DNA of 64,000 bases from Escherichia coli (lineage in GTDB: Bacteria; Pseudomonadota; Gammaproteobacteria; Enterobacterales; Enterobacteriaceae), in assembly GCF_044647545.1 (NCBI RefSeq), contig NZ_CP172818.1; one strand, given 5' to 3'. The notes beneath the pieces are model-generated. The model was not told the origin of the DNA. It was given only the letters and a program-made list of their open reading frames with translations, and made no database searches. Position 1 is the first letter of the stretch, and every line of letters starts with the position of its first letter. Of the stretch, positions 19,991 to 64,000 are shown piece after piece. Both the position numbers and the translations under genes were made by a program.

Positions 19991-19992
19991 TG

Positions 19993-20602: not shown

Positions 20603-20732
20603 CTTATGCAGGTGTGAAATTTTACCAATTTACATTTTTTTGCACTCGTTTAAGTCTAAAAAATGAGCATGATTTTGTTCTGTAGAAAGAAGCAGTTAAG
20701 CTAGGCGGATTGAAGATTCGCGGGAGAGCGAG

Positions 20733-21422: not shown

Positions 21423-21469
21423 ATTTGCGGGAAAATGCCGGATGGCAGAGTTGCCACCCGGCTGATTTA

Positions 21470-43972: not shown

Positions 43973-45043
43973 TTAAGCCACGCGAGCCGTCAGCTGCCCG
44001 TTCAGATCCTGATGAATTTCACGCAGCAAGGCATCGGTCATTTCCCAACTAATGCAGGCATCGGTGACGGATACACCGTATTTCATTTCACTGCGCGGTT
44101 GCTCGGAAGACTGATTGCCCTCGTGGATATTACTTTCAATCATCAGACCAATAATTGAGCGATTGCCATCTTTGATTTGAGCAACCACGGATTCTGCCAC
44201 CGCAGGCTGACGGCGATAATCTTTATTGGAATTACCGTGGCTGCAATCTACCATCAGAGACGGGCGCAGTCCCGCCTGTTCCATCTCTTTTTCACATTGC
44301 GCAACATCCGCAGGGCTATAGTTCGGCGCTTTACCACCGCGCAGGATCACATGCCCGTCCGGATTCCCCTGAGTTTGTAGCAACGCCACCTGCCCTGCCT
44401 GGTTAATGCCAACAAAACGGTGCGGCTGGGCGGCGGCACGCATAGCGTTAATAGCCGTTGCAAGGCTGCCGTCGGTGCCGTTTTTAAAACCAACCGGCAT
44501 GGAAAGCCCGGAGGCCATTTCACGGTGTGTTTGCGATTCCGTTGTACGAGCACCAATTGCTGACCAGCTAAACAGATCGCCCAGGTATTGCGGGCTATTC
44601 GGATCTAACGCTTCCGTCGCCAGTGGCAGTCCCATATTCACCAGCTCAAGCAGCAATTTACGCGCGATCTGCAGCCCGGCTTCTACATCAAAAGAGCCAT
44701 CCATATGGGGATCGTTAATCAACCCTTTCCAACCGACAGTGGTACGGGGTTTTTCAAAATAGACGCGCATTACCAGATAGAGGCTATCGCTGACCTCTGC
44801 GGCAAGGGCTTTAAATCGACGAGCATATTCCAGAGCAGTTTCCGGATCATGAATGGAACAAGGACCACAGACTACCAACAGACGAGGATCGCGCCCGGCG
44901 ATAATATCTGAAATGGTTTTACGCGAGTCAGCAATCTGGGCTTCCTGTTGCAGGCTTAATGGAAAAGCGGCCTTCAGTTGTTCCGGAGTCATTAAAACTT
45001 GTTCGTCGGTAATATGTACGTTATTCAGCGCGTCTTTTTGCAT
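43973..45043 (-). CDS. aroF: Tyr-sensitive DAHP synthase
   Basis: Track ORF 43973..45112; product starting [15 protein letters not shown] gives 356 aa. Confidence 0.93.
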
Positions 45044-45137
45044 GATGGCGATCCTGTTTATGCTCGTTTGCGATAGTTGATCCTCAGCGAGGATGACGTA
45101 ACGATAACACATAAAGTAAAGTTTTCAATCCATATTT

Positions 45138-45155
45138 CGTACATTTTTCTTTACA
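45138..45155 (-). promoter_or_regulatory. TyrR box upstream of aroF
   Basis: CGTACA-N6-TTTACA, two mismatches to TGTAAA-N6-TTTACA. Confidence 0.45.
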
Positions 45156-45189
45156 CAAGCAATTTATTCGCGCTTTTAACCCTTGTTTA

Positions 45190-45207
45190 TGTATAAATAA
45201 ATTTACA
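45190..45207 (-). promoter_or_regulatory. TyrR box upstream of aroF
   Basis: TGTATA-AATAAA-TTTACA, one mismatch to TyrR consensus. Confidence 0.5.
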
Positions 45208-45252
45208 CCACCTTTGAAAACAATCCGCTATGCTTTGAAAAAGGAGAAAGAA

Positions 45253-45618
45253 ATGATGAAAAAGTTTATTGCCCCCTTGTTGGCTTTACTGGTTAGCGGA
45301 TGTCAGATTGATCCTTATACTCACGCGCCAACCTTGACCAGCACCGACTGGTATGATGTCGGTATGGAAGATGCGATATCGGGCAGCACCATAAAAGATG
45401 ACGATGCATTTAGCGATTCACAGGCGGATCGCGGTCTATACCTTAAAGGATATGCCGAAGGACAAAAGAAAACTTGCCAGACCGATTTTACTTATGCCCG
45501 GGGACTTTCCGGTAAAAGCTTTCCTGCCAGCTGCAACAATGTTGAAAATGCCAGCCAACTGCATGAAGTATGGCAAAAAGGGGCTGATGAAAATGCCAGC
45601 ACAATACGATTAAATTAA
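45253..45618 (+). CDS. yfiL: Small lipoprotein (DUF2799 family)
   Basis: Track ORF 45214..45618; ATG at 45253 preceded by AGGAG gives 121 aa; lipobox LVSGC. Confidence 0.7.
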   Translation: MMKKFIAPLLALLVSGCQIDPYTHAPTLTSTDWYDVGMEDAISGSTIKDDDAFSDSQADRGLYLKGYAEGQKKTCQTDFTYARGLSGKSFPASCNNVENASQLHEVWQKGADENASTIRLN

Positions 45619-45767
45619 TTAAACCCCCACAAATAAATTAAACATGAGATTCTACTCATTGTGTTTTATTTCTCACATTGATGACGACCGCATGAAAGAA
45701 TGATATTTTAATGAGCATTCTGAAAAAATATCGATGCATTTCGAGCGAAGATGGTGAGGATCCCTGA

Positions 45768-46286
45768 ATGCGTTTTTCTCACCGACTGTTCTTACTGCTG
45801 ATTCTCCTGCTGACGGGAGCACCAATACTCGCTCAGGAACCTTCTGACGTTGCGAAAAACGTGCGTATGATGGTTTCCGGTATTGTCAGTTACACCCGCT
45901 GGCCTGCGCTATCAGGGCCACCAAAGTTATGTATCTTTTCATCTTCACATTTTAGTAACGCCCTACAAGAGAATGGCACGACATCTTTGCCTTATCTACC
46001 TGTCATCATTCACACTCAACAAGAGGCGATGATTTCAGGCTGCAATGGTTTTTATTTTGGCAACGAGTCACCGACATTCCAGATGGAATTAACCGAACAA
46101 TATCCGTCAAAGGCGTTATTATTAATTGCCGAACAAAATACCGAGTGCATTATTGGTAGCGCCTTTTGTCTAATCATCCACAATAATGACGTCAGATTTG
46201 CCGTAAACCTGGATGCCTTATCGCGTAGCGGTGTAAAGGTCAACCCGGATGTCTTAATGCTCGCACGGAAGAAAAATGATGGATAA
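45768..46286 (+). CDS. yfiR: Periplasmic repressor of diguanylate cyclase DgcN
   Basis: Track ORF 172 aa with signal peptide; overlaps dgcN start by 11 nt. Confidence 0.85.
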
Positions 46287-49830: not shown

Positions 49831-50157
<327 letters not shown>

Positions 50158-50213
50158 TTACTGATTTCTGGAGAAAATGCAATCAGCAGTTAATAACTCT
50201 GTCGCATAAGGTT

Positions 50214-51575
50214 TTAGCGACCAGGAAATCCCGGCGGCATCATCCCCTTCATGCTTCTCATCATCTTCGCCATTCCGCCCTTCTTCATTTTCTTCATCAT
50301 GCGCTGCATGTCGTCGAACTGTTTCAGAAGACGGTTAACGTCCTGCACCTGCATACCGCAACCGGCGGCGATACGACGCTTACGCGAACCTTTGATGATT
50401 TCTGGCTTAGCGCGCTCTTTCATCGTCATCGAGTTGATGATGGCTTCCATACGCACCAGCACTTTATCGTCCATCTGCGACTTGACGTTATCCGGGATCT
50501 GCCCCATGCCCGGCAGTTTGCCCATCAGGCTGGCCATGCCGCCCATATTTTTCATCTGGCGCAGTTGCTCAAGGAAGTCATTGAGATCGAAGCCGTCGCC
50601 TTTTTTCAGCTTGCTGGCTAATTTCTCAGCTTGCGCGCGGTCAACTTTGCTTTCGATATCTTCGATCAGCGACAGTACGTCGCCCATGCCGAGAATACGG
50701 GAAGCGATGCGGTCCGGATGGAACGGCTCCAGCGCCTCGGTTTTCTCGCCAACACCGAGGAACTTGATCGGTTTGCCAGTGATGTGACGAATAGAGAGCG
50801 CCGCACCGCCACGAGCATCGCCGTCGACTTTAGTCAGTACCACACCGGTCAGCGGTAACGCTTCATTGAATGCTTTTGCCGTATTGGCCGCATCCTGACC
50901 AGTCATGGCATCAACCACAAACAGGGTTTCAACCGGATTAATCGACGCATGGACTTGTTTGATCTCGTCCATCATCGCTTCGTCAACGTGCAGACGACCG
51001 GCGGTATCCACCAGCAGCACGTCGTAGAATTTCAGTTTGGCTTCTTTCAGCGCCGCGTTAACGATATCTACCGGCTTCTGACCAACATCAGAAGGGAAGA
51101 AATCAACGCCCACCTGCTCTGCCAGCGTCTCAAGCTGTTTGATTGCCGCCGGACGATAAACGTCGGCAGAAACCACCAGCACTTTCTTCTTGTGCTTCTC
51201 GCGCAGGAACTTACCGAGTTTACCAACGCTGGTTGTTTTACCGGCACCTTGCAGGCCCGCCATCAGCACGACCGCAGGCGGTTGCGCAGCCAGGTTCAGG
51301 GTCTGGTTCTCTTCGCCCATCGCCGCAACCAGTTCGTTACGGACAATTTTGACGAACTCCTGCCCCGGCGTCAGGCTCTTATTAACTTCATGACCAACCG
51401 CTTTCTCTTTTACGCGATTGATAAACTCACGCACTACCGGCAGGGCGACGTCCGCCTCCAGCAGCGCCATGCGCACTTCGCGCAGCGTATCTTTTACGTT
51501 GTCTTCAGTGAGGCGTCCACGGCCACTGATATTGCGCAGCGTGCGCGACAAACGATCGGTTAAATTATCAAACAT
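50214..51575 (-). CDS. ffh: Signal recognition particle protein Ffh
   Basis: Track ORF 453 aa; GTPase motifs GLQGAGKTT and DTAGR; Met-rich C-terminal M domain. Confidence 0.95.
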   Translation of the reverse strand: MFDNLTDRLSRTLRNISGRGRLTEDNVKDTLREVRMALLEADVALPVVREFINRVKEKAVGHEVNKSLTPGQEFVKIVRNELVAAMGEENQTLNLAAQPPAVVLMAGLQGAGKTTSVGKLGKFLREKHKKKVLVVSADVYRPAAIKQLETLAEQVGVDFFPSDVGQKPVDIVNAALKEAKLKFYDVLLVDTAGRLHVDEAMMDEIKQVHASINPVETLFVVDAMTGQDAANTAKAFNEALPLTGVVLTKVDGDARGGAALSIRHITGKPIKFLGVGEKTEALEPFHPDRIASRILGMGDVLSLIEDIESKVDRAQAEKLASKLKKGDGFDLNDFLEQLRQMKNMGGMASLMGKLPGMGQIPDNVKSQMDDKVLVRMEAIINSMTMKERAKPEIIKGSRKRRIAAGCGMQVQDVNRLLKQFDDMQRMMKKMKKGGMAKMMRSMKGMMPPGFPGR

Positions 51576-51741
51576 TGTCTCTCGCCTGGGGTGGAAACGG
51601 TTGGCCGCAATCGCGACACATCATCAGTATTTTGCCGCAGTATAACATGAAGGCGTCTTTGTTGTTATGCAACGGTTGGAGCAGCGTTCACCTGACGCTA
51701 TACTGCTTCTCTTTCTTATTGCTCAAACTGTCGACATTACT

Positions 51742-52533
51742 ATGCCCGTTTTTGCTCTGCTCGCGCTTGTCGCCTACTCCGTCAGTCTTGCGCTGATTGT
51801 ACCCGGTCTGCTGCAAAAAAACGGCGGCTGGCGGCGCATGGCTATTATTTCTGCGGTCATTGCGCTGGTCTGCCACGCAATCGCTCTGGAAGCCCGCATC
51901 CTGCCCGACGGTGATAGCGGACAAAACCTCAGCCTGCTGAACGTTGGTTCATTGGTCAGTTTGATGATCTGTACGGTAATGACCATTGTGGCTTCTCGCA
52001 ATCGTGGCTGGTTGCTGCTACCCATTGTCTATGCCTTTGCGCTTATCAACCTGGCGCTGGCGACCTTCATGCCCAATGAATACATAACCCATCTGGAAGC
52101 AACGCCTGGGATGCTGGTGCACATTGGCTTATCGCTCTTTTCCTATGCCACGCTAATTATCGCCGCCCTGTACGCGCTGCAACTGGCGTGGATTGATTAC
52201 CAACTGAAGAACAAGAAACTAGCGTTTAACCAGGAAATGCCGCCATTGATGAGTATCGAGCGTAAAATGTTCCACATCACGCAGATTGGCGTGGTGCTGC
52301 TAACGCTCACGCTTTGCACTGGCCTGTTCTACATGCACAACTTATTTAGCATGGAAAATATCGACAAGGCCGTGCTCTCTATCGTGGCGTGGTTTGTCTA
52401 TATTGTGCTGCTGTGGGGACATTATCATGAAGGATGGCGTGGACGCCGCGTCGTCTGGTTTAACGTTGCGGGTGCAGTCATTCTGACACTGGCCTACTTC
52501 GGCAGCCGAATTGTCCAGCAGTTAATCAGCTAA
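51742..52533 (+). CDS. ypjD: Inner membrane protein, cytochrome c assembly (CcmC/CcsA-like) family
   Basis: Track ORF 51667..52533; internal Met at 51742 gives 263 aa; polytopic membrane sequence. Confidence 0.7.
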   Translation: MPVFALLALVAYSVSLALIVPGLLQKNGGWRRMAIISAVIALVCHAIALEARILPDGDSGQNLSLLNVGSLVSLMICTVMTIVASRNRGWLLLPIVYAFALINLALATFMPNEYITHLEATPGMLVHIGLSLFSYATLIIAALYALQLAWIDYQLKNKKLAFNQEMPPLMSIERKMFHITQIGVVLLTLTLCTGLFYMHNLFSMENIDKAVLSIVAWFVYIVLLWGHYHEGWRGRRVVWFNVAGAVILTLAYFGSRIVQQLIS

Positions 52534-52577
52534 ACCCAGAAAAGGAGTTTCCCCTGGAACACATTTCTACTACTACG

Positions 52578-53840
52578 TTGATCATTATTCTGATCATCAT
52601 GGTGGTCATTTCAGCCTATTTTTCCGGGTCCGAAACCGGAATGATGACCCTCAACCGCTATCGTCTGCGACATATGGCGAAACAGGGTAATCGCTCGGCC
52701 AAACGCGTCGAAAAATTGCTGCGTAAGCCAGACCGCCTGATTAGCCTGGTGTTAATCGGCAATAACCTGGTCAATATTCTTGCCTCCGCGCTCGGCACTA
52801 TTGTTGGGATGCGTTTGTACGGCGATGCGGGCGTGGCAATTGCGACTGGTGTGCTGACTTTTGTCGTACTGGTTTTTGCTGAGGTATTGCCGAAAACCAT
52901 TGCCGCGCTGTACCCGGAAAAAGTCGCTTATCCGAGTAGTTTTCTGCTGGCTCCGCTGCAAATTTTGATGATGCCGCTGGTCTGGTTGCTGAATGCTATT
53001 ACCCGCATGTTAATGCGCATGATGGGCATCAAAACCGATATCGTGGTTAGCGGCTCTTTGAGCAAAGAAGAGTTGCGCACCATCGTGCACGAATCGCGCT
53101 CACAAATTTCCCGTCGCAATCAGGATATGCTGCTGTCGGTGCTCGATCTGGAAAAAATGACCGTTGATGACATCATGGTGCCGCGCAGTGAAATTATCGG
53201 TATTGATATCAACGATGACTGGAAATCGATTCTGCGCCAACTCTCCCACTCACCTCACGGGCGCATCGTGCTCTACCGTGATTCGCTGGACGACGCCATC
53301 AGTATGCTGCGTGTGCGTGAAGCCTGGCGACTCATGTCGGAGAAAAAAGAGTTCACCAAAGAAACCATGCTACGCGCCGCGGACGAGATCTATTTTGTCC
53401 CGGAAGGTACGCCGCTCAGCACGCAGTTGGTGAAGTTTCAGCGCAACAAAAAGAAAGTCGGCCTGGTCGTCAACGAGTATGGAGACATTCAGGGGCTGGT
53501 GACGGTTGAAGATATTCTGGAAGAGATTGTCGGCGATTTCACTACCTCGATGTCGCCAACACTTGCCGAAGAGGTCACGCCGCAAAACGACGGTTCGGTG
53601 ATTATCGATGGCACCGCCAACGTGCGAGAAATCAACAAAGCCTTTAACTGGCATCTACCTGAAGACGATGCCCGCACGGTTAATGGCGTCATTCTTGAAG
53701 CTCTGGAAGAGATCCCTGTCGCTGGCACCCGCGTGCGTATTGGCGAGTACGATATCGATATTCTCGACGTACAGGATAATATGATTAAGCAGGTAAAAGT
53801 TTTTCCTGTGAAACCGCTGCGCGAGAGTGTGGCGGAGTAA
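52578..53840 (+). CDS. yfjD: CNNM/CorC-family membrane protein (DUF21, CBS pair, CorC domains)
   Basis: Track ORF 420 aa beginning at a TTG codon; true start may differ slightly. Confidence 0.8.
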   Translation: MIIILIIMVVISAYFSGSETGMMTLNRYRLRHMAKQGNRSAKRVEKLLRKPDRLISLVLIGNNLVNILASALGTIVGMRLYGDAGVAIATGVLTFVVLVFAEVLPKTIAALYPEKVAYPSSFLLAPLQILMMPLVWLLNAITRMLMRMMGIKTDIVVSGSLSKEELRTIVHESRSQISRRNQDMLLSVLDLEKMTVDDIMVPRSEIIGIDINDDWKSILRQLSHSPHGRIVLYRDSLDDAISMLRVREAWRLMSEKKEFTKETMLRAADEIYFVPEGTPLSTQLVKFQRNKKKVGLVVNEYGDIQGLVTVEDILEEIVGDFTTSMSPTLAEEVTPQNDGSVIIDGTANVREINKAFNWHLPEDDARTVNGVILEALEEIPVAGTRVRIGEYDIDILDVQDNMIKQVKVFPVKPLRESVAE

Positions 53841-53876
53841 AAAAACGGCCCGGCATTCGCATGCTGGGCCGTGATT
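53841..53876. terminator. Bidirectional terminator between yfjD and grpE
   Basis: Stem ACGGCCCGG / CTGGGCCGT (one G-U pair), A-run on plus side gives a T-run on the minus strand. Confidence 0.6.
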
Positions 53877-53893
53877 TATTACGAAAGCAGAAA

Positions 53894-54520
<627 letters not shown>

Positions 54521-54533
54521 CTAACTTCGCTTA

Positions 54534-54561
54534 TTATGGGGATCAGTTTCAGGGTTTCAAG
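54534..54561 (-). promoter_or_regulatory. Sigma-32 (heat-shock) promoter for grpE
   Basis: Minus strand CTTGAAA, 13-nt spacer, CCCCATAA; near-perfect sigma-32 consensus. Confidence 0.7.
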
Positions 54562-54609
54562 GGAAGCACTCACATTGTCATCAATCTTCGCAACAAGGAC
54601 CTCGGAAAA

Positions 54610-55488
54610 ATGAATAATCATTTCAAGTGTATTGGCATTGTGGGACACCCACGGCACCCCACTGCACTGACAACACATGAAATGCTCTACCGCTGGCTGT
54701 GCGCAAAAGGTTACGAGGTCATCGTTGAGCAACAAATCGCTCACGAACTGCAACTGAAGAATGTGAAAACTGGCACGCTCGCGGAGATTGGGCAACTGGC
54801 AGATCTCGCGGTAGTTGTTGGTGGCGACGGTAATATGCTGGGCGCGGCGCGCACGCTCGCCCGCTACGATATTAAAGTTATTGGAATCAACCGTGGCAAC
54901 CTGGGTTTCCTGACTGACCTTGATCCCGATAACGCCCAGCAACAATTAGCCGATGTGCTGGAAGGCCACTACATCAGCGAGAAACGTTTTTTGCTGGAAG
55001 CGCAAGTCTGTCAGCAAGATTGCCAGAAACGCATCAGCACGGCGATTAACGAAGTGGTACTTCATCCTGGCAAAGTGGCGCATATGATTGAGTTCGAAGT
55101 GTATATCGACGAGATCTTTGCGTTTTCGCAGCGTTCCGATGGACTGATTATTTCGACGCCAACAGGCTCCACCGCCTATTCCCTCTCTGCGGGCGGTCCT
55201 ATTCTGACACCCTCTCTGGATGCGATTACCCTGGTGCCCATGTTCCCGCATACGTTGTCAGCACGACCACTGGTCATAAACAGCAGCAGCACGATCCGTC
55301 TGCGTTTTTCGCATCGCCGTAACGACCTGGAAATCAGTTGCGACAGCCAGATAGCACTGCCGATTCAGGAAGGTGAAGATGTCCTGATTCGTCGCTGTGA
55401 TTACCATCTGAATCTTATTCATCCGAAAGATTACAGTTATTTCAATACATTAAGCACCAAGCTCGGCTGGTCAAAAAAATTATTCTAA
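54610..55488 (+). CDS. nadK: NAD kinase
   Basis: Track ORF 292 aa; GGDGN motif. Confidence 0.95.
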
Positions 55489-55505
55489 TTTTACGCCAGC
55501 CTCTT

Positions 55506-55525
55506 TACTGTATATAAAACCAGTT
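55506..55525 (+). promoter_or_regulatory. LexA (SOS) box 1 upstream of recN
   Basis: TACTGTATATAAAACCAGTT, CTG-N10-CAG. Confidence 0.65.
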
Positions 55526-55527
55526 TA

Positions 55528-55547
55528 TACTGTACACAATAACAGTA
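55528..55547 (+). promoter_or_regulatory. LexA (SOS) box 2 upstream of recN
   Basis: TACTGTACACAATAACAGTA, CTG-N10-CAG; a weaker third half-site follows at about 55548..55563. Confidence 0.65.
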
Positions 55548-55573
55548 ATGGTTTTTCATACAGGAAAACAACT

Positions 55574-57235
55574 ATGTTGGCACAACTGACCATCAGCAAC
55601 TTTGCTATCGTTCGTGAGCTTGAGATTGATTTTCATAGCGGCATGACCGTAATAACTGGCGAGACCGGCGCGGGTAAATCTATTGCAATAGATGCCCTCT
55701 GTCTTTGTCTCGGTGGTCGCGCTGAAGCCGACATGGTGCGTACCGGCGCTGCTCGCGCTGACCTGTGCGCCCGTTTTTCTCTGAAAGATACGCCAGCGGC
55801 CCTGCGCTGGCTGGAAGAAAACCAGCTTGAAGACGGGCATGAATGTTTGCTTCGTCGCGTAATCAGCAGCGATGGTCGCTCCCGTGGTTTTATCAACGGT
55901 ACAGCGGTTCCTCTTTCACAACTGCGCGAACTGGGTCAGTTGCTGATTCAGATCCATGGTCAGCACGCTCATCAGTTACTCACCAAACCCGAGCACCAAA
56001 AATTCCTGCTTGATGGCTATGCCAATGAAACCTCTCTACTCCAGGAAATGACCGCACGTTATCAGTTGTGGCATCAAAGCTGCCGTGACCTCGCGCATCA
56101 TCAACAGTTAAGTCAGGAACGCGCCGCCCGTGCAGAACTGCTGCAATACCAATTAAAAGAACTTAACGAATTTAATCCGCAGCCCGGAGAGTTTGAGCAA
56201 ATCGACGAAGAGTACAAACGTCTGGCGAACAGCGGTCAATTGCTGACTACTAGCCAGAATGCATTGGCAGTAATGGCCGACGGTGAAGACGCAAACCTGC
56301 AAAGTCAGCTTTACACGGCTAAACAACTGGTGAGCGAATTGATTGGCATGGACAGCAAACTGTCCGGCGTACTTGATATGCTGGAAGAAGCTACCATCCA
56401 GATTGCTGAAGCCAGCGATGAACTGCGCCACTACTGCGATCGTCTGGATCTCGATCCCAACCGACTGTTTGAACTTGAACAGCGCATCTCAAGACAGATT
56501 TCGCTGGCACGTAAACATCACGTCAGCCCTGAGGCATTGCCACAGTATTACCAGTCGCTACTGGAAGAACAGCAGCAACTGGACGATCAGGCCGACTCAC
56601 AAGAAACGCTCGCGCTGGCGGTAACGAAACATCATCAGCAGGCACTGGAAACGGCGCGCGCGTTACACCAGCAACGCCAGCACTATGCAGAAGAACTTGC
56701 ACAGCTGATCACCGACAGTATGCATGCACTCTCTATGCCGCATGGGCAGTTTACGATCGATGTTAAATTTGACGAGCATCACCTGGGCGCTGACGGCGCT
56801 GATCGTATTGAGTTTCGGGTAACCACCAACCCAGGTCAGCCAATGCAGCCTATTGCCAAAGTCGCATCCGGTGGTGAGTTGTCCCGCATCGCATTGGCAA
56901 TTCAGGTCATCACGGCGCGTAAAATGGAAACCCCGGCACTGATTTTTGATGAAGTGGATGTAGGGATTAGCGGCCCAACAGCGGCAGTTGTCGGCAAACT
57001 GCTGCGTCAACTTGGCGAATCAACTCAGGTGATGTGTGTTACCCACCTGCCACAAGTCGCGGGATGTGGTCATCAACACTATTTTGTCAGCAAAGAAACC
57101 GATGGTGCGATGACAGAAACGCACATGCAATCCCTGGATAAAAAAGCGCGGTTACAAGAGCTGGCACGCCTGCTTGGTGGCAGTGAAGTCACACGTAACA
57201 CACTGGCGAATGCGAAAGAACTACTTGCGGCGTAA
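55574..57235 (+). CDS. recN: DNA repair protein RecN (SMC-like ATPase)
   Basis: Track ORF 553 aa; Walker A GETGAGKS. Confidence 0.95.
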
Positions 57236-57383
57236 ACTTTTTTCCTGCTTCACGGTCAGAGTAAACAGCAAAACGCCGTAGGACCGGAAAGCAAAAGGTT
57301 TTAAAGTGATGAAAGGTCTATTATCATCGGCATATTACAGATGAGCCACGTACTGCTCGGGCCCGAAAAGGAATCAAATCACT

Positions 57384-57725
57384 ATGCGCTGTAAAACGCT
57401 GACTGCTGCAGCAGCAGTACTATTGATGTTGACCGCAGGCTGTTCCACTCTGGAGCGAGTGGTTTACCGTCCTGACATCAACCAGGGGAATTATCTGACC
57501 GCTAACGACGTATCCAAAATACGTGTTGGCATGACGCAACAACAAGTTGCGTACGCATTGGGTACACCGCTGATGTCCGACCCATTTGGTACAAATACCT
57601 GGTTCTATGTCTTCCGCCAGCAACCTGGTCATGAAGGTGTAACGCAGCAAACGCTGACGCTGACCTTTAACAGTAGCGGTGTGTTGACCAACATTGATAA
57701 CAAACCTGCGCTGAGTGGTAACTAA
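57384..57725 (+). CDS. bamE: Outer membrane protein assembly factor BamE (lipoprotein)
   Basis: Track ORF 113 aa; lipobox LTAGCS. Confidence 0.92.
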
Positions 57726-57750
57726 TAATAAAGTTGCTCTCAAAGAGGTT

Positions 57751-57779
57751 AAAAAAGGTGCTCAATGAGCACCTTTTTT
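57751..57779. terminator. Bidirectional terminator between bamE and ratB
   Basis: Stem GGTGCTC / GAGCACC with 3-nt loop flanked by AAAAAA and TTTTTT. Confidence 0.7.
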
Positions 57780-57786
57780 CTGTCTG

Positions 57787-58077
57787 TTATTTATTCGCTG
57801 ATTTTTCTGCTCGTTGCCTGCGAAGCTCTTTCGGATCGGCAATGAGAGGACGATAAATCTCCACCCGATCGCCATCATGCACCGTATCGCTCAGTTTGGC
57901 CGGACGGCTGTAAATGCCGACTTTGTTTTTAGTTAAATCGATATCGGTACGCAATTCCAGCAAGCCACTGGCACGAATAGCTTCTTCAACCGTCGCACCC
58001 TCCTGCAGCGTCACGCGCTGCAGGTACTGCTTCTCAGGTAGCGCATAAGCCACCTCAACGGCAATTTTACCTGGCAC
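57787..58077 (-). CDS. ratB: Small protein RatB (ubiquitin-like fold family)
   Basis: Track ORF 57787..58161; internal Met at 58077 gives 96 aa; 11-bp overlap with ratA. Confidence 0.7.
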
Positions 58078-58543
58078 TGTAAACCTCTTTCGCACGAACC
58101 GTAAAAGCCTGGACCATATTAGCCGCCAGCTCTTTAAACACGCGACCAAAGGCGAGTTCAATCAACTTATTGGTAAACTCAAAGTCGAGATGAAACTCGA
58201 TACGACACGCCTCCTGGCTCAGCGGCGTAAACTTCCATCCACCGATCAATTTCTTGAACGGCCCATCCACCAGATTCATAAGAATACTTTGGTTACTGGT
58301 CAACTGGTTGCGGGTAGTAAACGTTTTGCTGATCCCAGCCTTAGAGACATCTACCGCCGCAGTCATCTGCCCAGGAGTGGACTCCAGAATCCGACTTCCG
58401 GTACAACCCGGCAAAAACTGAGGATAAGACTGAACGTCATTCACTAACTGATACATTTGCTCCGCGCTGTAGGGTACCAGTGCGGTCCGGCTAATCTGAG
58501 GCATAACAATTTCCATCAACAAAAATCCAACAAATAATATCAT
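58067..58543 (-). CDS. ratA: Ribosome association toxin RatA (SRPBCC fold)
   Basis: Track ORF 158 aa; start could instead be the internal MPQISRT Met. Confidence 0.8.
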
Positions 58544-58674
58544 TTATCCTGCTGTAAAAAAAACGCTATCCCGGCGCTGGGTAACATCGGGTTCATGCTA
58601 AGATAGAGCCTTGTCCCCCGCAGGATTGATATGGGGTGTTTTCGATTTCAGATTACCGATGATTCACGACGCTT

Positions 58675-59157
58675 ATGACGAAGAAAAAAGCACATAAACC
58701 TGGTTCAGCGACCATCGCGCTTAACAAGCGCGCCCGGCACGAATACTTTATCGAAGAAGAGTTCGAGGCGGGACTTGCCCTGCAAGGCTGGGAGGTTAAA
58801 TCCCTGCGCGCAGGAAAAGCCAATATCAGCGACAGCTACGTCCTTCTGCGTGACGGAGAGGCATTTCTGTTTGGCGCTAACATCACGCCAATGGCTGTGG
58901 CCTCCACGCATGTGGTGTGCGATCCTACCCGTACCCGCAAGTTACTTCTCAACCAGCGCGAACTGGACTCATTGTACGGTCGCGTCAATCGAGAAGGCTA
59001 TACCGTAGTGGCGCTCTCCCTGTACTGGAAAAATGCCTGGTGCAAAGTGAAAATCGGCGTCGCCAAAGGTAAGAAACAGCATGATAAACGTTCAGATATC
59101 AAAGAACGCGAATGGCAGGTGGATAAAGCGCGTATCATGAAAAACGCCCACCGTTAA
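58675..59157 (+). CDS. smpB: SsrA-binding protein SmpB
   Basis: Track ORF 160 aa. Confidence 0.95.
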
Positions 59158-59371
59158 ACCTGCACTGCAATTATTGATCCGCTCCTCACCGCGCCTCCCT
59201 CTCCGGCGGCGCGAATGCACATCTTATTGGCTATCACATCCGACCCAAATGTTGCCATCCCATTGCTTAATCGAATAAAAATCAGGCTACATGGGTGCTA
59301 AATCTTTAACGATAACGCCATTGAGGCTGGTCATGGCACTCATGAATCTGGTATACTTACCGTTACACATT

Positions 59372-59734
59372 GGGGCTGATTCTGGATTCGACGGGATTTG
59401 CGAAACCCAAGGTGCATGCCGAGGGGCGGTTGGCCTCGTAAAAAGCCGCAAAAAATAGTCGCAAACGACGAAAACTACGCTTTAGCAGCTTAATAACCTG
59501 CTTAGAGCCCTCTCTCCCTAGCCTCCGCTCTTAGGACGGGGATCAAGAGAGGTCAAACCCAAAAGAGATCGCGTGGAAGCCCTGCCTGGGGTTGAAGCGT
59601 TAAAACTTAATCAGGCTAGTTTGTTAGTGGCGTGTCCGTCCGCAGCTGGCAAGCGAATGTAAAGACTGACTAAGCATGTAGTACCGAGGACGTAGGAATT
59701 TCGGACGCGGGTTCAACTCCCGCCAGCTCCACCA
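59372..59734 (+). ncRNA. ssrA: Transfer-messenger RNA (tmRNA)
   Basis: 363 nt from GGGGCTGATTCTGGATTCGACGGG to GGGTTCAACTCCCGCCAGCTCCACCA; internal frame GCAAACGACGAAAACTACGCTTTAGCAGCTTAA encodes tag ANDENYALAA; TATACT -10-like hexamer upstream. Confidence 0.97.
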
Positions 59735-59781
59735 AAATTCTCCATCGGTGATTACCAGAGTCATCCGATGAAGTCCTAAGA

Positions 59782-59813
59782 GCCCGCACGGCGCAAGCCC
59801 TGCGGGCTTTTTT
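59782..59813 (+). terminator. Rho-independent terminator after ssrA
   Basis: Stem AAGCCC / GGGCTT with 3-nt loop (within a larger GCCCGCA / TGCGGGC repeat) followed by TTTTT. Confidence 0.65.
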
Positions 59814-59868
59814 GTGCCCTCAATTTGTCCCGCGAAGTCCGAAGAGAACTAATTAAATCCGAACCTTT

Positions 59869-59919
59869 TAGGCCCATTGATAGGCCCAACGAAAAGCTCT
59901 ATTGTTTACGTTGGGCCTA
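59869..59919 (+). promoter_or_regulatory. Repeat cluster upstream of intA (candidate Int/regulator binding sites)
   Basis: Two direct copies of TAGGCCCA (59869, 59881) and a perfect 10-bp inverted repeat TAGGCCCAAC...GTTGGGCCTA (59881..59890 and 59910..59919), 19-57 bp upstream of intA ATG. Confidence 0.4.
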
Positions 59920-59937
59920 AACGCAGGGAGACTCCCC

Positions 59938-61179
59938 ATGGCAAGAAAAACCAAGCCGTTAACTGATACGGAAATCAAAGCCGCCAAACCTAAAGATGCC
60001 GATTACCAGCTTTATGACGGTGACGGGCTTACTCTGTTAATCAAGTCCAGTGGCAGTAAGCTTTGGCAATTCCGTTACTATCGGCCTTTGACCAAGCAGC
60101 GAACCAAACAGAGCTTCGGTGCCTATCCTGCCGTCTCGCTTTCTGATGCACGTAAACTCAGAGCCGAATCTAAAGTTTTATTGGCGAAAGACATTGATCC
60201 TCAGGAACATCAGAAAGAACAGGTGAGGAATTCTCAAGAGGCCAAAACCAATACCTTCTTGTTAGTTGCCGAGCGTTGGTGGAATGTGAAGAAAACCAGC
60301 GTAACAGAGGACTATGCCGACGATATCTGGCGCTCGCTTGAGAGAGATATTTTCCCGGCAATCGGTGATATCAGTATCACTGAGATTAAGGCTCATACTC
60401 TGGTTAAAGCAGTTCAGCCGGTTCAGGCCAGAGGTGCATTAGAGACTGTTCGCCGCCTTTGTCAGCGTATTAACGAAGTCATGATTTATGCGCAGAACAC
60501 AGGCCTGATTGATGCTGTTCCTAGTGTAAATATCGGAAAAGCTTTCGAGAAACCGCAAAAGAAAAACATGCCAAGCATCCGGCCGGATCAACTTCCGCAG
60601 CTAATGCACACCATGCGTACGGCAAGTATCAGCATGTCCACAAGATGCCTGTTCATGTGGCAACTTCTAACCATCACCCGCCCTGCCGAAGCTGCTGAGG
60701 CTCGATGGGATGAGATCGATTTCAATGCTAGCGAATGGAAAATTCCTGCAGCTCGAATGAAGATGAACCGGGACCATACGGTTCCACTATCTGATGGGGC
60801 TCTTGCTATTCTGGAAATGATGAAGCCTCTCAGTGGTGGCCGAGAATTTATCTTTCCTAGCCGTATCAAGCCCAACCAACCAATGAATAGCCAAACAGTG
60901 AATGCAGCACTCAAGCGTGCTGGCTTAGGAGGTGTACTTGTTTCACACGGCTTGCGTTCTATCGCCAGTACGGCACTCAATGAGGAAGGATTTCCACCTG
61001 ATGTCATTGAAGCAGCGCTTGCTCATGTAGACAAAAATGAGGTGCGTCGCGCTTATAACCGCAGTGATTATCTTGAGCAACGTCGTCCGATGATGCAATG
61101 GTGGGCTGATCTCGTAAAAGCAGCAGATAGTGGTAGCATCGTTTTAACTCATTTGAGCAAAATTCGTCTTGTCGGATAA
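59938..61179 (+). CDS. intA: Tyrosine-type prophage integrase
   Basis: Track ORF 59902..61179; ATG at 59938 preceded by GGGAG gives 413 aa; catalytic-region motifs HGLRS and RAYNRSDY. Confidence 0.92.
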   Translation: MARKTKPLTDTEIKAAKPKDADYQLYDGDGLTLLIKSSGSKLWQFRYYRPLTKQRTKQSFGAYPAVSLSDARKLRAESKVLLAKDIDPQEHQKEQVRNSQEAKTNTFLLVAERWWNVKKTSVTEDYADDIWRSLERDIFPAIGDISITEIKAHTLVKAVQPVQARGALETVRRLCQRINEVMIYAQNTGLIDAVPSVNIGKAFEKPQKKNMPSIRPDQLPQLMHTMRTASISMSTRCLFMWQLLTITRPAEAAEARWDEIDFNASEWKIPAARMKMNRDHTVPLSDGALAILEMMKPLSGGREFIFPSRIKPNQPMNSQTVNAALKRAGLGGVLVSHGLRSIASTALNEEGFPPDVIEAALAHVDKNEVRRAYNRSDYLEQRRPMMQWWADLVKAADSGSIVLTHLSKIRLVG

Positions 61180-61186
61180 AATATTT

Positions 61187-61216
61187 ATCAGCCCAGCTCT
61201 CTGGGCTGATATTTCT
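61187..61216 (+). terminator. Stem-loop terminator after intA
   Basis: Perfect 10-bp stem ATCAGCCCAG / CTGGGCTGAT with 4-nt loop, AT-rich flanks, 8 nt past intA stop. Confidence 0.6.
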
Positions 61217-61304
61217 AAAAGATCGCACTAAATAGCTACGCGGAATAGTGCTCTACTTTCGTTTAGCCCTTTCAGAGGTAAGACATTAGGGCAATTTCAC
61301 TGTA

Positions 61305-61318
61305 TGACTGCGCAGTCA
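61305..61318. repeat. Perfect 14-bp palindrome TGACTGCGCAGTCA
   Basis: Self-complementary 14-mer in the intA-yfjH intergenic region; possible operator or part of the yfjH 3' structure. Confidence 0.4.
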
Positions 61319-61422
61319 TCGAGTCTGTGGGGTGTTGCTCCTTTTGCAACGTATCACTTGTCAATAAATAGAAAGTGTAGATGTATTAGGCGCAGCTATT
61401 TAGTCTATATGGCAAGTAGTAA

Positions 61423-62379
61423 TTATTTACTTCTTTTTTTTCTACGAACAGCGCTATCGAAAGCTTGTTTTACATCTTCATTTTTTAAAGACCATTGATT
61501 TAAAATAGTATCAACCAAAGCATCTTGACTCATTGTTGCTACACGATATTTTTTATTTTGATTATTTATCTCAAACTCTGACATTTGAATAAAATCCCAT
61601 AGCGGTTCGATAAGTTCATTAACTGCTACAACCTTATTTTTCCACCCATCATTCGGAACAGAGTCATTAATTAGCTCAACCAACTTCAGTTGAATGATAT
61701 GGTACACTTCCGCTTTGCTTTTGCCACCCTTCTTTCCTGCACTCCGCCTGACTTCTGATAATTTTTTTTGATTACAAACAGAGATGTTAAACCAAGTCAT
61801 ACCTATGCACTTATCAAATAACTCCGCAGCCCGATGAAATGCTTTAAAGGCAACGTTTTCATTTTCAGACATGATAGATTTTCCCCAGAAAAAAGAGATT
61901 GAGGCGAACATAAGGTGTGCCTTGAAAATGTCATTAATGGAAAATGGCTCGATAACAAGAGGTAAAAACGTTTCCTTGGTAAGGTTTGAACTTAGATTTT
62001 TCCAGCATTCTTGAGCTGGATCATATAATTCAGTGTATTCTTCCTTTATCTCCAGTTGCCCATTCACTGTATGGTGCCTTGTTTCCCATGGTACATCGCA
62101 GGAATATAACCTCACACGAGTACCTATTTTCTCAGAGCTCCAGAATTGCTCTCGCATTCTGCCTAGCTCAATCCGTATTTCCGGATGATCTTCCTCTAGA
62201 ACATCAGTATCCACCGCCCATTCGCATTCGGACATGTGATAGGCGAGATCACGTCGTTTTCTACAAATTTGTTCATAAAAATCATTCAGAGAAATCATAA
62301 AACCACCATAAATCAATGTATTAGAGGTTGTAAAAATTGTATTTTTGGTACATGGGTTTTTTGCCTTAAAGATACCCAT
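61423..62379 (-). CDS. yfjH: Uncharacterized prophage protein, AT-rich orphan gene adjacent to integrase
   Basis: Track ORF 61423..62499; internal Met at 62379 gives 318 aa and avoids overlap with alpA; strongly AT-rich; no motif I can assign. Confidence 0.6.
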   Translation of the reverse strand: MGIFKAKNPCTKNTIFTTSNTLIYGGFMISLNDFYEQICRKRRDLAYHMSECEWAVDTDVLEEDHPEIRIELGRMREQFWSSEKIGTRVRLYSCDVPWETRHHTVNGQLEIKEEYTELYDPAQECWKNLSSNLTKETFLPLVIEPFSINDIFKAHLMFASISFFWGKSIMSENENVAFKAFHRAAELFDKCIGMTWFNISVCNQKKLSEVRRSAGKKGGKSKAEVYHIIQLKLVELINDSVPNDGWKNKVVAVNELIEPLWDFIQMSEFEINNQNKKYRVATMSQDALVDTILNQWSLKNEDVKQAFDSAVRRKKRSK

Positions 62380-62422
62380 TAATCTCTCTGCAACCAAAGT
62401 GAACCAATGAGAGGCAACAAGA

Positions 62423-62635
62423 ATGAACAATCGATCGGCCGTTAGAATACTACGGTTACCAGCGGTTATCCAAAAAACAGGTATGGCACGGGCCACCATC
62501 TATGACTGGTTGAACCCCAAATCACCACGATACGATGCCACCTTTCCCAAAAAGCGAATGCTCGGCGTGAAATCTGTCGGATGGATTGAGGCCGAGATTG
62601 ATGAGTGGTTATCACAACGCTGTAAACTTATTTGA
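62423..62635 (+). CDS. alpA: AlpA-family prophage transcriptional regulator / excisionase-like protein
   Basis: Track ORF 70 aa beginning MNNRSAVRILRLPAVIQKTGMARATIYDW; GAGG ribosome-binding site upstream. Confidence 0.85.
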   Translation: MNNRSAVRILRLPAVIQKTGMARATIYDWLNPKSPRYDATFPKKRMLGVKSVGWIEAEIDEWLSQRCKLI

Positions 62636-62763
62636 GGGTGTTACATGAATTCATACTCAATTGCTGTCATCGGAGTGTAAACATCCTGCTATTTCCGCCA
62701 TTAATAGCGGAATAGCCATATTTGCTAAACAATTTCTTAATTTAATTAAATAAGAGGCATTGC

Positions 62764-64000
62764 ATGTTCAATGGTCGTCCTTTCCCTGTAGATGCATTTC
62801 CTAAAATTATCAGGAATGCAATTTATGAAGTGGAACAGCATACGCAGGCCCCTCAAGGTTTGATTGCTGCTTCTGCTCTTGGGGTAATTTCTCTTGCCTG
62901 TCAGAACCGGATTGATGTTTGCCGATTGAATAATCTACGTGGCCCGGTATCACTTTTCTTAATGACTCTGGCTGAATCAGGTGAACGTAAGAGTACGGTT
63001 GATAAACTGCTGATGAAGCCATTATATCAACTGGAAGAGGATTTATTTGAAAAATACACCCACGATCTTACCGCATGGAGAAATGATGAAGCAATTTTTA
63101 ATATTGAAAAAAAAGCACTGATGTCAAAACTTAAATCAGATATTCGACGTAACAAAGATCACTTGGCAACAAATGAAAGACTTAAAGAACTACTTACGAC
63201 AAACCCGAAAGCTCCAGTGAGATTCAAATTTTTATTTAACGATGCCACACCTGCAGCTATTAAAGCTCATCTCTGTGGGCACTGGCGATCAGTCGGCATC
63301 ATGTCTGATGAAGCTGGGATCATTTTTAATGGTTACACACTTAACGAGCTGCCGTTTATCAATAAGATGTGGGATGGTTCAATATTTACGGTGGAAAGGA
63401 AAAACGAGCCCGAGAAATTAATTAGAGATGCAAGAATAACACTGTCGCTGATGGTCCAGCCTAATGTTTTTAAGGGTTATATCGACAGGAAAGGAGATAT
63501 GGCAAAGGGGATTGGATTTTTTGCACGGTGCCTCATGTGCCAGCCTGCTTCAACACAAGGTAACAGAAAAATTTCCAACCCAATTTTTTCAAATGAACAT
63601 TTGCCGGTATTTCACCAACGTCTTATGGAAATTGTTAATGAGAGCATCATTAAAATTAATGAAAATAATCGCATCTGCCTCCGATTCTCTGCAGAAGCAG
63701 AAAGACATTGGATCGAATTCTACAACCAGGTCGAGTCAGAAATGAGAATGATTGGCCTTCTTTATGATTTTAAGGATTATGCTTCTAAAATGGCGGAGAA
63801 CATGGCGAGGCTTGCTGCCTTACTTCATTACTTCAGCGGTGATGGAGGCGATATATCTGTTACCGCAGTAAAAGCAGCAGTGGAGATAGTGGCTTGGTAT
63901 ATTGAAGAATACATCCGCTTGTTCTCTAAAAAAGAAGAGTTTTCTTTAGATGTTTCAGAAGCAGATGAGCTTTATTGTTGGATAAAAGATTACTGCACGC
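62764..64000 (+). CDS. yfjI: Uncharacterized prophage protein (DUF3987-like by recollection), 3' end beyond window
   Basis: Hand translation from ATG 62764 (AGAGG 7 nt upstream) is open to the window end (412 codons) beginning MFNGRPFPVDAFPKIIRNAIYEVEQHTQAPQGL; absent from ORF track because no stop lies in the window. Confidence 0.7.
   Translation, partial: MFNGRPFPVDAFPKIIRNAIYEVEQHTQAPQGLIAASALGVISLACQNRIDVCRLNNLRGPVSLFLMTLAESGERKSTVDKLLMKPLYQLEEDLFEKYTHDLTAWRNDEAIFNIEKKALMSKLKSDIRRNKDHLATNERLKELLTTNPKAPVRFKFLFNDATPAAIKAHLCGHWRSVGIMSDEAGIIFNGYTLNELPFINKMWDGSIFTVERKNEPEKLIRDARITLSLMVQPNVFKGYIDRKGDMAKGIGFFARCLMCQPASTQGNRKISNPIFSNEHLPVFHQRLMEIVNESIIKINENNRICLRFSAEAERHWIEFYNQVESEMRMIGLLYDFKDYASKMAENMARLAALLHYFSGDGGDISVTAVKAAVEIVAWYIEEYIRLFSKKEEFSLDVSEADELYCWIKDYCT

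What the first reader, a model, noticed from the sequence alone, without database searches (positions are those of the whole stretch)
59700..64000. P4-family cryptic prophage arm inserted at tmRNA gene
An integrase gene sits 200 bp downstream of ssrA, followed by an AlpA-type regulator and AT-rich ORFs of unknown function. GC content drops visibly relative to the flanking core genes. This is the only clearly accessory segment in the window and the most likely place for strain-specific or defence-related cargo.
Basis: partly seen in the sequence, partly recalled or inferred. Interest (0 to 1): 0.5.

Follow-up and report, generated by a model that had tools for sequence, protein, structure and literature searches.

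The report
CP4-57 island arm at tmRNA gene
This is the left end of CP4-57, a long-studied integrase-led island next to the E. coli tmRNA gene, so it is ordinary, except that here a copy identical to the K-12 one sits in a non-K-12 strain background.

Summary
The tmRNA gene ssrA lies at 59372-59734. An intact P4-type tyrosine integrase gene (intA, 59938-61179) starts 203 bp after it. Then come yfjH (minus strand), alpA, and yfjI, which is cut by the window end. GC falls from 50.8% in the core to 39.3% past intA.

From 59692 to 64000 the sequence has no mismatch to the E. coli K-12 element CP4-57. This element is already well studied: AlpA-induced, IntA-dependent excision, which in K-12 deletes T357 of ssrA and inactivates tmRNA.

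Only the integration module is P4-like: Int, AlpA, and an att site with tandem 12-bp arm repeats. The K-12 island has no P4 alpha, epsilon, sid, delta or psu homologue and no virion or lysis gene. It is better described as an integrative genomic or defence island than as a prophage.

No known defence gene lies inside the window. In K-12, Hachiman (AbpAB) and RnlAB lie just past it.

One unexpected point is that the flanking core is not K-12. It is 98.2-98.7% identical to K-12 but about 100% identical to FDAARGOS_497-like strains, whose ssrA site is empty. The switch falls in the 44 nt that hold the att core. This means either recent site-specific acquisition or an assembly chimera. Novelty: already known. 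Interest: low.

The parts
59372..59734 (+). ssrA (tmRNA gene). Its 3' end is the attL site. It has C at 59691 (ssrA position 320) where K-12 has T.
   Evidence: ARAGORN. Rfam RF00023, 292.8 bits.
59712..59735 (+). attL core region, TTCAACTCCCGCCAGCTCCACCAA. The block CGCCAGC (59721-59727) is the only stretch shared with the attR of both K-12 CP4-57 and the EC476 island, so it is the likely crossover block. T357 of ssrA is at 59728.
   Evidence: attB/attL/attR alignments. Coordinates. The T357 deletion on excision is from PMC10107115.
59778..59817 (+). Island-borne intrinsic terminator hairpin plus T-run, 44 nt after the tmRNA CCA end. It replaces the native downstream sequence and probably terminates ssrA transcription.
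   Evidence: Terminator scan and inverted repeat I9. RNA fold. Nearly the same hairpin is carried by two other ssrA islands and is absent from the empty site.
59869..59919 (.). Three copies of TAGGCCCA(T/A): two direct copies with 12-bp spacing (59869, 59881) and one inverted (59911-59919). They are probable arm-type IntA-binding sites of the P' arm and overlap a promoter-like site (59877-59905) for intA.
   Evidence: These are the only 3 matches to TRGGMCCAW in 64 kb. A tandem pair with the same 12-bp spacing sits 55 bp left of the K-12 attR core. The layout matches the annotated P4 attP arm repeats. Promoter scan.
59938..61179 (+). intA, an intact P4-type tyrosine integrase of 413 aa.
   Evidence: NCBIfam PRK09692 1-413/413. 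Pfam domains. Catalytic residues. Identical to K-12 IntA and 36% identical to P4 Int.
61186..61211 (.). Hairpin between the convergent genes intA and yfjH, terminator-like on both strands.
   Evidence: Terminator scan.
61423..62379 (-). yfjH, function unknown, 36.8% GC. The true start is probably Met28 (ATG at 62298), giving 291 aa.
   Evidence: No Pfam or NCBIfam match. PHROG 19089, unknown function, aligns to residues 28-318. 11 of 14 aligned homologues begin at or after Met28. Residues 1-28 are disordered in the AF2 model. No informative fold match.
62423..62635 (+). alpA, a 70-aa AlpA/Vis-type winged-helix protein that acts as excision activator or excisionase.
   Evidence: PF05930 precomputed on the identical protein. 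PHROG 'excisionase and transcriptional regulator'. 34% identical to P4 ORF88. Function from PMC3105296, PMC10107115 and PMC5148205.
62764..64000 (+). yfjI, a DUF3987 helicase-like protein. The first 412 of 469 codons are present; the gene is cut by the window end.
   Evidence: Identical to the first 412 residues of K-12 YfjI, with no stop codon. Pfam DUF3987, 1.3e-107. PHROG 2373 'DNA helicase', 5e-100.

Best explanation
The segment is the left (attL) arm of CP4-57, an integrative genomic island led by a P4-type integrase and inserted into the 3' end of the tmRNA gene ssrA.

**How it works.**
- IntA is a tyrosine recombinase with an arm-binding domain. It recombines a short core inside the ssrA acceptor/T-arm region, most likely the 7-nt block CGCCAGC.
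- The island's P' arm carries the last 7 nt of ssrA (TCCACCA) and its own terminator hairpin. The tmRNA gene therefore stays intact and is terminated by island DNA while the island is resident.
- Tandem 12-bp TAGGCCCA repeats upstream of intA are the probable arm-type Int sites.
- AlpA, a small winged-helix protein of the P4 Vis/excisionase type, switches the system towards excision.
- In K-12 the attR copy lacks T357. Excision there leaves a tmRNA without its G.U identity pair, which inactivates trans-translation.
- YfjI (DUF3987 helicase-like) probably belongs to a remnant replication module. YfjH is of unknown function.

**Shown here:** identity to K-12, gene content, the att anatomy, and the empty-site comparison.

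**Taken from the literature:** AlpA-induced and IntA-dependent excision, and the T357 deletion with its consequences.

**Inferred:** the crossover block, the roles of the arm sites and the terminator, and that this strain's island continues as in K-12.
For: **Identity.** There are 0 mismatches to K-12 MG1655 from 59692 to 64000, and the intA, yfjH, alpA and yfjI products are identical to K-12's.

**Empty-site control.** FDAARGOS_497 has ssrA directly followed by ypjA. attB equals attL up to CCACCAA. The K-12 attR is an imperfect copy, and the sequence after it matches the empty-site flank.

**Integrase.** It is intact, with full domain set and catalytic residues.

**Arm repeats.** They cluster at both island ends, with P4-like geometry.

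**Terminator.** The hairpin is conserved in three different ssrA islands.

**Literature.**
- Excision of CP4-57 deletes T357/U357, the G.U wobble of the acceptor stem, and switches ribosome rescue to ArfA (PMC10107115).
- alpA overexpression cures CP4-57, and excision leaves ssrA with a 1-bp change (PMC3105296).
- In Shewanella CP4So, AlpA acts as excisionase and the same U is lost (PMC5148205).
Against: - Only 4.3 kb of an island that is 22 kb in K-12 lies in the window. The right arm, attR and cargo of this strain are unseen.
- The flanking core is not K-12, and no complete RefSeq E. coli genome has this exact junction. That the rest of the island equals K-12's is therefore an assumption.
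- The TRGGMCCAW motif was defined after seeing the sites, so its clustering is descriptive and not a test.
- The terminator and crossover assignments are inferred from sequence only.
Confidence: 0.95

Rival explanations
1. The join between a non-K-12 core and a K-12-identical island is not biological. It could be a mis-join in an assembly of a sample contaminated with K-12 DNA, or a constructed chimera. The switch would then fall inside the stretch of ssrA that both genomes share.
For: - Window 705-59735 is 99.95-100% identical to FDAARGOS_497, while 59692-64000 is 100% identical to K-12.
- None of 5426 complete genomes has the junction. The best matches are K-12 strains at 99.9%.
- All 19 sampled genomes that hold the arm at about 100% identity are K-12 or lab derivatives.
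- Relatives with the same core have an empty site.
- Among 32 contigs encoding the same RecN, none carried CP4-57.
Against: - The switch interval (59692-59735) is also exactly where true site-specific integration would place it, so its position does not decide between the two readings.
- Other islands do integrate at this site in the same lineage, so the site is active.
- Metagenome contigs show the same attL junction with the non-K-12 'C' allele of ssrA joined to related islands.
Confidence: 0.4
2. It is a true P4-like satellite phage, a capsid-hijacking element with sid, delta, psu and alpha genes, and not a degenerate island.
For: - Int is 36% identical to P4 Int, and AlpA is 34% identical to P4 ORF88.
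- The att site has P4-type architecture.
- A real P4-like satellite occupies the same ssrA site in a related strain, L014.
Against: - tblastn with all 13 P4 proteins against the whole 22-kb K-12 island finds only Int and ORF88.
- YfjI shares no PHROG with P4 alpha.
- The arm in the window is identical to K-12's.
- IntA is only 61% identical to the integrase of the L014 satellite.
Confidence: 0.03
3. The K-12-type island entered this lineage by homologous recombination of a larger K-12 fragment (transduction or conjugation) and not by IntA-mediated integration.
For: K-12 donors are widely used in laboratory crosses. The island DNA shows no divergence from K-12.
Against: The nearest K-12-specific SNPs to the left (59691, 59362, 59344, 59338) are all absent. 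The left crossover would have had to fall within 43 nt of homology directly next to the island, which is improbable for RecA-dependent exchange.
Confidence: 0.07

Closest known systems
CP4-57 of Escherichia coli K-12 (ssrA-intA-yfjH-alpA-yfjI ... ypjF)
   Same: The DNA is identical from 59692 to the window end. Gene order, attL, terminator and arm repeats are the same.
   Different: The host background differs. The core is 98.2-98.7% identical to K-12 and about 100% identical to FDAARGOS_497-like strains. ssrA has C instead of T at position 320. The right 18 kb and attR are unseen.
CP4So of Shewanella oneidensis (P4-like island at ssrA)
   Same: It is inserted at the 3' end of ssrA. It has a P4-type IntA and an AlpA excisionase, 47% identical to CP4-57 AlpA according to the paper. 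Excision deletes the U of the acceptor-stem G.U pair (PMC5148205).
   Different: It is in a different genus and carries different cargo. Its excision is controlled by H-NS and cold, which is reported not to apply to CP4-57.
Satellite phage P4
   Same: It has a tyrosine integrase with an arm-binding domain (36% identity) and ORF88/Vis, which resembles AlpA (34% identity). It integrates into the 3' end of a tRNA-type gene. Its att site has tandem 12-bp arm repeats about 54 bp to one side of the core and about 113 bp to the other, plus an inverted copy at the int start. The CP4-57 spacings are 55 and 135 bp.
   Different: The K-12 island has no alpha, epsilon, cI, sid, delta, psu, gop, beta or cII homologue. 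The target is ssrA, not tRNA-Leu.
Other integrase-led islands at the E. coli ssrA site (the EC476 Lamassu-like/SIR2 island; the P4-like satellite in GCA_030713555.1)
   Same: They use the same insertion point after CCACCA. Their integrases are related (48.5% and 61% identity). They carry a near-identical island-borne terminator after ssrA, followed by integrase-specific repeats before int. The EC476 attR also has a deletion right after CGCCAGC.
   Different: The cargo is entirely different, and so are the arm-repeat sequences.

Membership tests
CP4-57 (K-12 island at ssrA) | Inserted at the 3' end of ssrA, with attL inside the gene | tested here: met
   ssrA lies at 59372-59734. Identity to the empty site ends at 59735.
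CP4-57 (K-12 island at ssrA) | Left-arm gene order intA, yfjH (opposite strand), alpA, yfjI, with K-12 sequence | tested here: met
   There are 0 mismatches from 59692 to 64000, and the proteins are identical.
CP4-57 (K-12 island at ssrA) | Remaining about 18 kb (yfjJ ... ypjF) and a degenerate attR next to ypjA | not testable with these tools
   This part lies beyond the window end. It was seen only in K-12.
P4-type integration module | Tyrosine recombinase with an N-terminal arm-binding domain, homologous to P4 Int, with an intact catalytic set | tested here: met
   Pfam finds Arm-DNA-bind_3, Phage_int_M and Phage_integrase. It is 36% identical to P4 Int over 402 aa. R248, K275, H337, R340, H363 and Y373 are present.
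P4-type integration module | Small AlpA/Vis-type winged-helix excision factor | tested here: met
   PF05930. 34% identical to P4 ORF88, E = 1e-11. PHROG excisionase families.
P4-type integration module | An att site in the 3' end of a tRNA-like gene, flanked by tandem 12-bp arm repeats | tested here: met
   The motif was defined post hoc, so this is an anatomical match and not a statistical one.
P4-like satellite phage (strict sense) | Alpha primase-helicase | tested here: not met
   No BLAST hit in the K-12 island. YfjI is DUF3987, PHROGs 2373 and 3022, while P4 alpha falls in PHROG 2249 and others, with none shared.
P4-like satellite phage (strict sense) | sid, delta and psu (capsid-size control and helper transactivation) and epsilon | tested here: not met
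   They are absent from the window and from the entire 22-kb K-12 island by tblastn. They are present in a real satellite at the same site, L014.
P4-like satellite phage (strict sense) | RNA-based immunity (CI RNA) | tested here: inconclusive
   No Rfam family other than tmRNA reached its threshold in 59000-64000. There is no cI homologue in K-12. I did not verify that Rfam models the P4 CI RNA.
Prophage (virus-derived element with virion, packaging or lysis genes) | At least remnants of head, tail, terminase or lysis genes | tested here: not met
   None of the 22 K-12 island proteins hits a PHROG in a structural, packaging or lysis category.
Anti-phage defence system inside 59.7-64 kb | A protein that matches a known defence-system model | tested here: not met
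   PADLOC gives no hit for IntA, YfjH, AlpA, YfjI or YfjJ. In K-12, HamA/HamB (Hachiman, = AbpA/AbpB) lie 2-6 kb past the window end.

The most novel reading that the evidence does not exclude
CP4-57 is usually treated as a defective relic confined to the K-12 lineage. The most novel reading is that it is still horizontally mobile: a copy identical to K-12's integrated by IntA-mediated site-specific recombination into an unrelated FDAARGOS_497-like lineage whose sequenced relatives have an empty ssrA site. If so, its attR in this strain should carry an intact T357. Excision would then restore ssrA instead of breaking it, and the tmRNA 'excision switch' would be a K-12-specific decay and not a built-in property of the element.
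Probability: 0.35. Interest if true: 0.35.

Novelty: already known. Interest (0 to 1): 0.12.

Why it matters
As an element it adds nothing new. CP4-57, its AlpA/IntA excision switch and its effect on tmRNA have been studied since 1994.

Its practical value is for annotation. The window ends in the island's integration and replication arm, so any strain-specific or defence cargo must be sought beyond base 64000.

The only point worth following up is the K-12-identical arm in a non-K-12 chromosome. If real, it documents recent mobility of an element regarded as immobile. It would also offer a natural test of whether tmRNA inactivation on excision is intrinsic to the element or a K-12 accident. 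If it is an artefact, it flags a chimeric assembly.

Tried and rejected
1. **Exact attR search.** I looked for an exact second copy (12-30 nt) of the ssrA 3' end in K-12, and ran blastn-short, and found nothing. The attR copy has three indels and was found only by reading the ypjF-ypjA gap and by local alignment.
2. **Fixed-offset comparison.** A first comparison with K-12 at a fixed offset gave nonsense because of an upstream indel. It was replaced by BLAST.
3. **YfjH function.**
   - No Pfam, NCBIfam or PADLOC hit.
   - Only 19 proteins were found in 5.8 billion, 18 of them full-length relatives; the named ones are all Enterobacterales.
   - The AF2 model is moderate (pLDDT 70).
   - No PDB fold match; the best E-value is 0.59.
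   - AFDB50 matches are almost all uncharacterised proteins; one weak match is labelled only 'DNA-binding protein'.
   - The one lead is that yfjH overexpression blocked the retron-Sen2 RcaT toxin in a screen (bioRxiv 10.1101/2020.06.22.160242). I did not follow it up.
4. **Looking for the window's exact junction elsewhere.**
   - A metagenome scan with a 71-nt junction pattern gave 3 contigs. They share only the junction and 80-1370 bp of the island, then diverge.
   - Contigs encoding the exact YfjH were all K-12-like.
   - Contigs encoding the window's RecN had empty sites or other islands.
5. **YfjI as a relative of P4 alpha.** Rejected.
6. **A general attR pattern.** EC476 has no copy of the 23-mer within 5 errors. 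Its right junction had to be found through the flank.
7. **Primary paper.** Kirby et al. 1994 (PMC205313) is not held in the library. Its content is cited only through later papers.
Full report
**1. What is in the sequence**

ARAGORN places a tmRNA gene at 59372-59734 (+) with the E. coli tag ANDENYALAA. Rfam RF00023 matches the same span at 292.8 bits.

The ORFs downstream are as follows:
- 59902-61179 (+). The ATG used in K-12 is at 59938, 203 bp after ssrA.
- 61423-62499 (-). K-12 annotates it as 61423-62379, yfjH.
- 62423-62635 (+), alpA.
- An ORF from 62764 that runs off the window end, yfjI.

GC content is 50.8% for the core, 47.6% for intA and 39.3% for 61180-64000. The last value is below every one of 283 equal-sized core windows, whose minimum is 45.4%. 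Two details need adding: yfjH lies between the integrase and alpA on the other strand, and the GC drop begins only after intA.

**2. Identity**

Megablast of 59300-64000 against 5426 complete E. coli genomes gives K-12 strains as best hits. Their annotation is ssrA, intA, yfjH, alpA, yfjI. The K-12 record shows the whole island:
- intA, yfjH, alpA, yfjI, yfjJ
- abpB/abpA
- yfjM
- rnlA/rnlB
- yfjP-yfjT
- arsenic-gene remnants
- yfjW
- lfgA/lfgB
- ypjJ
- yfjZ/ypjF
- then ypjA outside the island

This is CP4-57. From 59692 to 64000 there is not a single mismatch to MG1655, and the products of intA, yfjH, alpA and the 412 visible codons of yfjI are identical to K-12's.

**3.

No exact copy of 12 nt or more of the ssrA 3' end exists downstream in K-12. 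A degenerate copy lies in the ypjF-ypjA gap, 22,030 bp downstream.

Strain FDAARGOS_497 has the same core as the window but no island: ssrA is followed after 161 bp by ypjA. The three junctions are:

| Site | Source | Sequence |
|---|---|---|
| attB | empty site, FDAARGOS_497 | ...TTCAACTCCCGCCAGCTCCACCA\|ATCATGATTGG |
| attL | window | same up to CCACCA, then AAATTCTCC... |
| attR | K-12 | TTCAGACT-CCGCCAGC-CCACCA\|ATCATGATTGG |

So a second copy exists, and genomes without the integrase have ssrA directly next to ypjA. The interpretation survives its own test.

The T missing from the K-12 attR is T357 of ssrA, window position 59728. This agrees with published work:
- CP4-57 excision deletes T357/U357, the G.U wobble of the acceptor stem. 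That inactivates tmRNA and switches ribosome rescue to ArfA (PMC10107115).
- Excision leaves ssrA with a one-base change, and alpA overexpression cures the element (PMC3105296).
- The same U is lost when CP4So excises in Shewanella, where AlpA behaves as the excisionase and IntA is required (PMC5148205).

**4. Anatomy of the arm**

*IntA.* It is full length against NCBIfam PRK09692. It has arm-binding, central and catalytic domains. It keeps R248, K275, H337, R340, H363 and Y373.

*The spacer between ssrA and intA.* It contains two features:
- A strong hairpin plus T-run at 59778-59817. Two unrelated islands at the same site carry an almost identical hairpin at the same distance from CCA. The empty site has no terminator until the one shared with ypjA, about 190 nt away. 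I infer that resident islands supply the ssrA terminator.
- Three copies of TAGGCCCA(T/A): two direct copies 12 bp apart and one inverted copy 18 nt before the ATG. They overlap a promoter-like site.

These three are the only matches to TRGGMCCAW in the 64-kb window. In K-12, a further tandem pair with the same 12-bp spacing lies 55 bp left of the attR core.

The annotated attP of phage P4 has the same plan: tandem 12-bp repeats about 54 bp on one side of the core, tandem repeats about 113 bp on the other, and an inverted copy at the int start. The motif was defined after I had seen the sites, so this is an anatomical parallel and not a statistical test.

*YfjI.* It is a DUF3987 protein in a PHROG named 'DNA helicase'.

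*YfjH.* It has no family assignment:
- Its relatives are few. The named ones are all Enterobacterales.
- Most of them start at Met28, which is also where the PHROG alignment starts.
- Residues before Met28 are disordered in the model, so the true start is probably 62298.
- Fold searches gave nothing informative.

**5. Is it P4-family? Is it a prophage? Is it a defence island?**

BLAST of all 13 P4 proteins against the 22-kb K-12 island finds only Int (36% identity) and ORF88/Vis (34% identity to AlpA). P4 alpha and YfjI share no PHROG.

None of the 22 island proteins falls in a virion, packaging or lysis PHROG category. By contrast, a genuine P4-like satellite (int, psu, delta, sid, alpA, ash, epsilon) occupies the same ssrA site in a related strain.

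CP4-57 is therefore P4-like only in its integration module. The label 'cryptic P4-like prophage' is historical.

PADLOC finds no defence protein among IntA, YfjH, AlpA, YfjI and YfjJ. In K-12, AbpA/AbpB match HamA/HamB (Hachiman) at E = 1e-266 and 1e-220, and YfjR is a WYL protein. All of these lie past base 64000.

**6. The unexpected point: the background is not K-12**

The numbers are:
- Upstream of 59691 the window differs from MG1655 at 1.3-1.8% of positions.
- Window 705-59735 is 99.95-100% identical to FDAARGOS_497.
- Window 50000-59700 is 100% identical to about 30 listed strains.
- At least four of those strains have the empty junction at 100% identity.

The switch from 'FDAARGOS-like' to 'K-12-identical' lies between 59692 and 59735, the 44 nt that contain the att core.

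The combination was not found elsewhere:
- No complete genome has it.
- All 19 evenly sampled carriers of the arm at about 100% identity are K-12 or lab derivatives.
- A metagenome scan for the junction, and contig look-ups through YfjH and RecN, did not recover it.

Two readings fit equally well: recent IntA-mediated integration of a K-12-type CP4-57 into this lineage, or a chimeric join across the shared ssrA sequence. Import by homologous recombination is unlikely, because none of the K-12 SNPs within 400 bp to the left came along. The window alone cannot decide this. The attR and read support in the source assembly would.

**7. Wider context seen in passing**

The uninterrupted ssrA/ypjA-side junction is present in 2528 of 5426 genomes, so roughly half of E. 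coli have something at or near this site.

In EC476 a 19.8-kb island with Lamassu-like and SIR2 genes sits there. Its attR shares only CGCCAGC with ssrA and lacks 5 nt right after it. K-12's attR lacks 1 nt at the same position. This suggests that CGCCAGC is the crossover block. It also suggests that damage to ssrA on excision may be common among these islands.

**8. Verdict**

The finding is real and correctly interpreted, and it is a textbook element. Novelty is 'already known' and interest is low (0.12). The only open question is whether the K-12-identical arm in a non-K-12 chromosome is biological.

Noticed in passing
window 39416-59735 versus 59692-64000: The core is 98.2-98.7% identical to K-12 but 99.95-100% identical to FDAARGOS_497-like strains, which have an empty ssrA site. 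The island arm is 100% identical to K-12. The switch lies within the 44 nt around the att core, and no complete RefSeq E. coli genome has this combination.
   Followed up: partly
window 59691 (ssrA position 320): This is the only ssrA difference from K-12: C here and in FDAARGOS_497, T in K-12 and EC476. It is also the last K-12-discriminating SNP before the island.
   Followed up: no
window 62298-62379 (yfjH 5' end): The annotated YfjH start (62379) is probably 27 codons too far upstream. Eleven of 14 aligned homologues and the PHROG profile begin at or after Met28, and residues 1-28 are disordered in the model. The later start would widen the yfjH-alpA divergent promoter region from 43 to 124 bp.
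   Followed up: partly
window 59778-59817; L013 and L014, about 45-70 nt after ssrA: Three unrelated ssrA-site islands carry a near-identical terminator hairpin (AGCCCGCA...CTGCGGGCTTTTTT) just after the tmRNA gene. The empty site lacks it, so resident islands appear to supply the ssrA terminator.
   Followed up: partly
L015 (E. coli EC476, NZ_AP027419.1), right junction near locus 28005 (minus orientation): The attR of this Lamassu-like/SIR2 island reads ...GGGACGCCAGC|CAATCATG. It shares only CGCCAGC with ssrA and lacks 5 nt (TCCAC) immediately after it, at the spot where K-12's CP4-57 attR lacks T357. Excision there would probably also damage tmRNA.
   Followed up: partly
L014 (GCA_030713555.1, JAUOVX010000009.1) 14346-21662: A genuine P4-like satellite (int, SEC-C protein, psu, delta, sid-sized ORF, alpA, ash, epsilon-type 'Derepression') sits at the same ssrA site in a strain with the same RecN as the window. 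Its integrase is 61% identical to IntA.
   Followed up: partly
window about 40813 (between bamD and raiA): FDAARGOS_497 carries an IS4 insertion here (L003 40189-41535) that the window lacks. Apart from this the two are collinear.
   Followed up: no
window 4001-5000 and 45001-46000: These are low-GC blips (40.7% and 42.0%). They map to the conserved yfhL-shoB-acpS region and the aroF-yfiL region, not to accessory DNA.
   Followed up: yes
phage records OK490418.1 and OK490421.1 (Klebsiella phages Kp4865-2 and Kp4866-6): The closest integrases to IntA in the phage collection (85% identity, full length) are in two unannotated 46-kb Klebsiella phage records. This suggests that complete temperate phages use the same integrase type.
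   Followed up: no
yfjH (window 61423-62379), literature: In a genome-wide overexpression screen, yfjH was among the prophage genes that blocked the RcaT toxin of retron-Sen2 (bioRxiv 10.1101/2020.06.22.160242). This hints at a possible counter-defence role for an otherwise unassigned protein.
   Followed up: no
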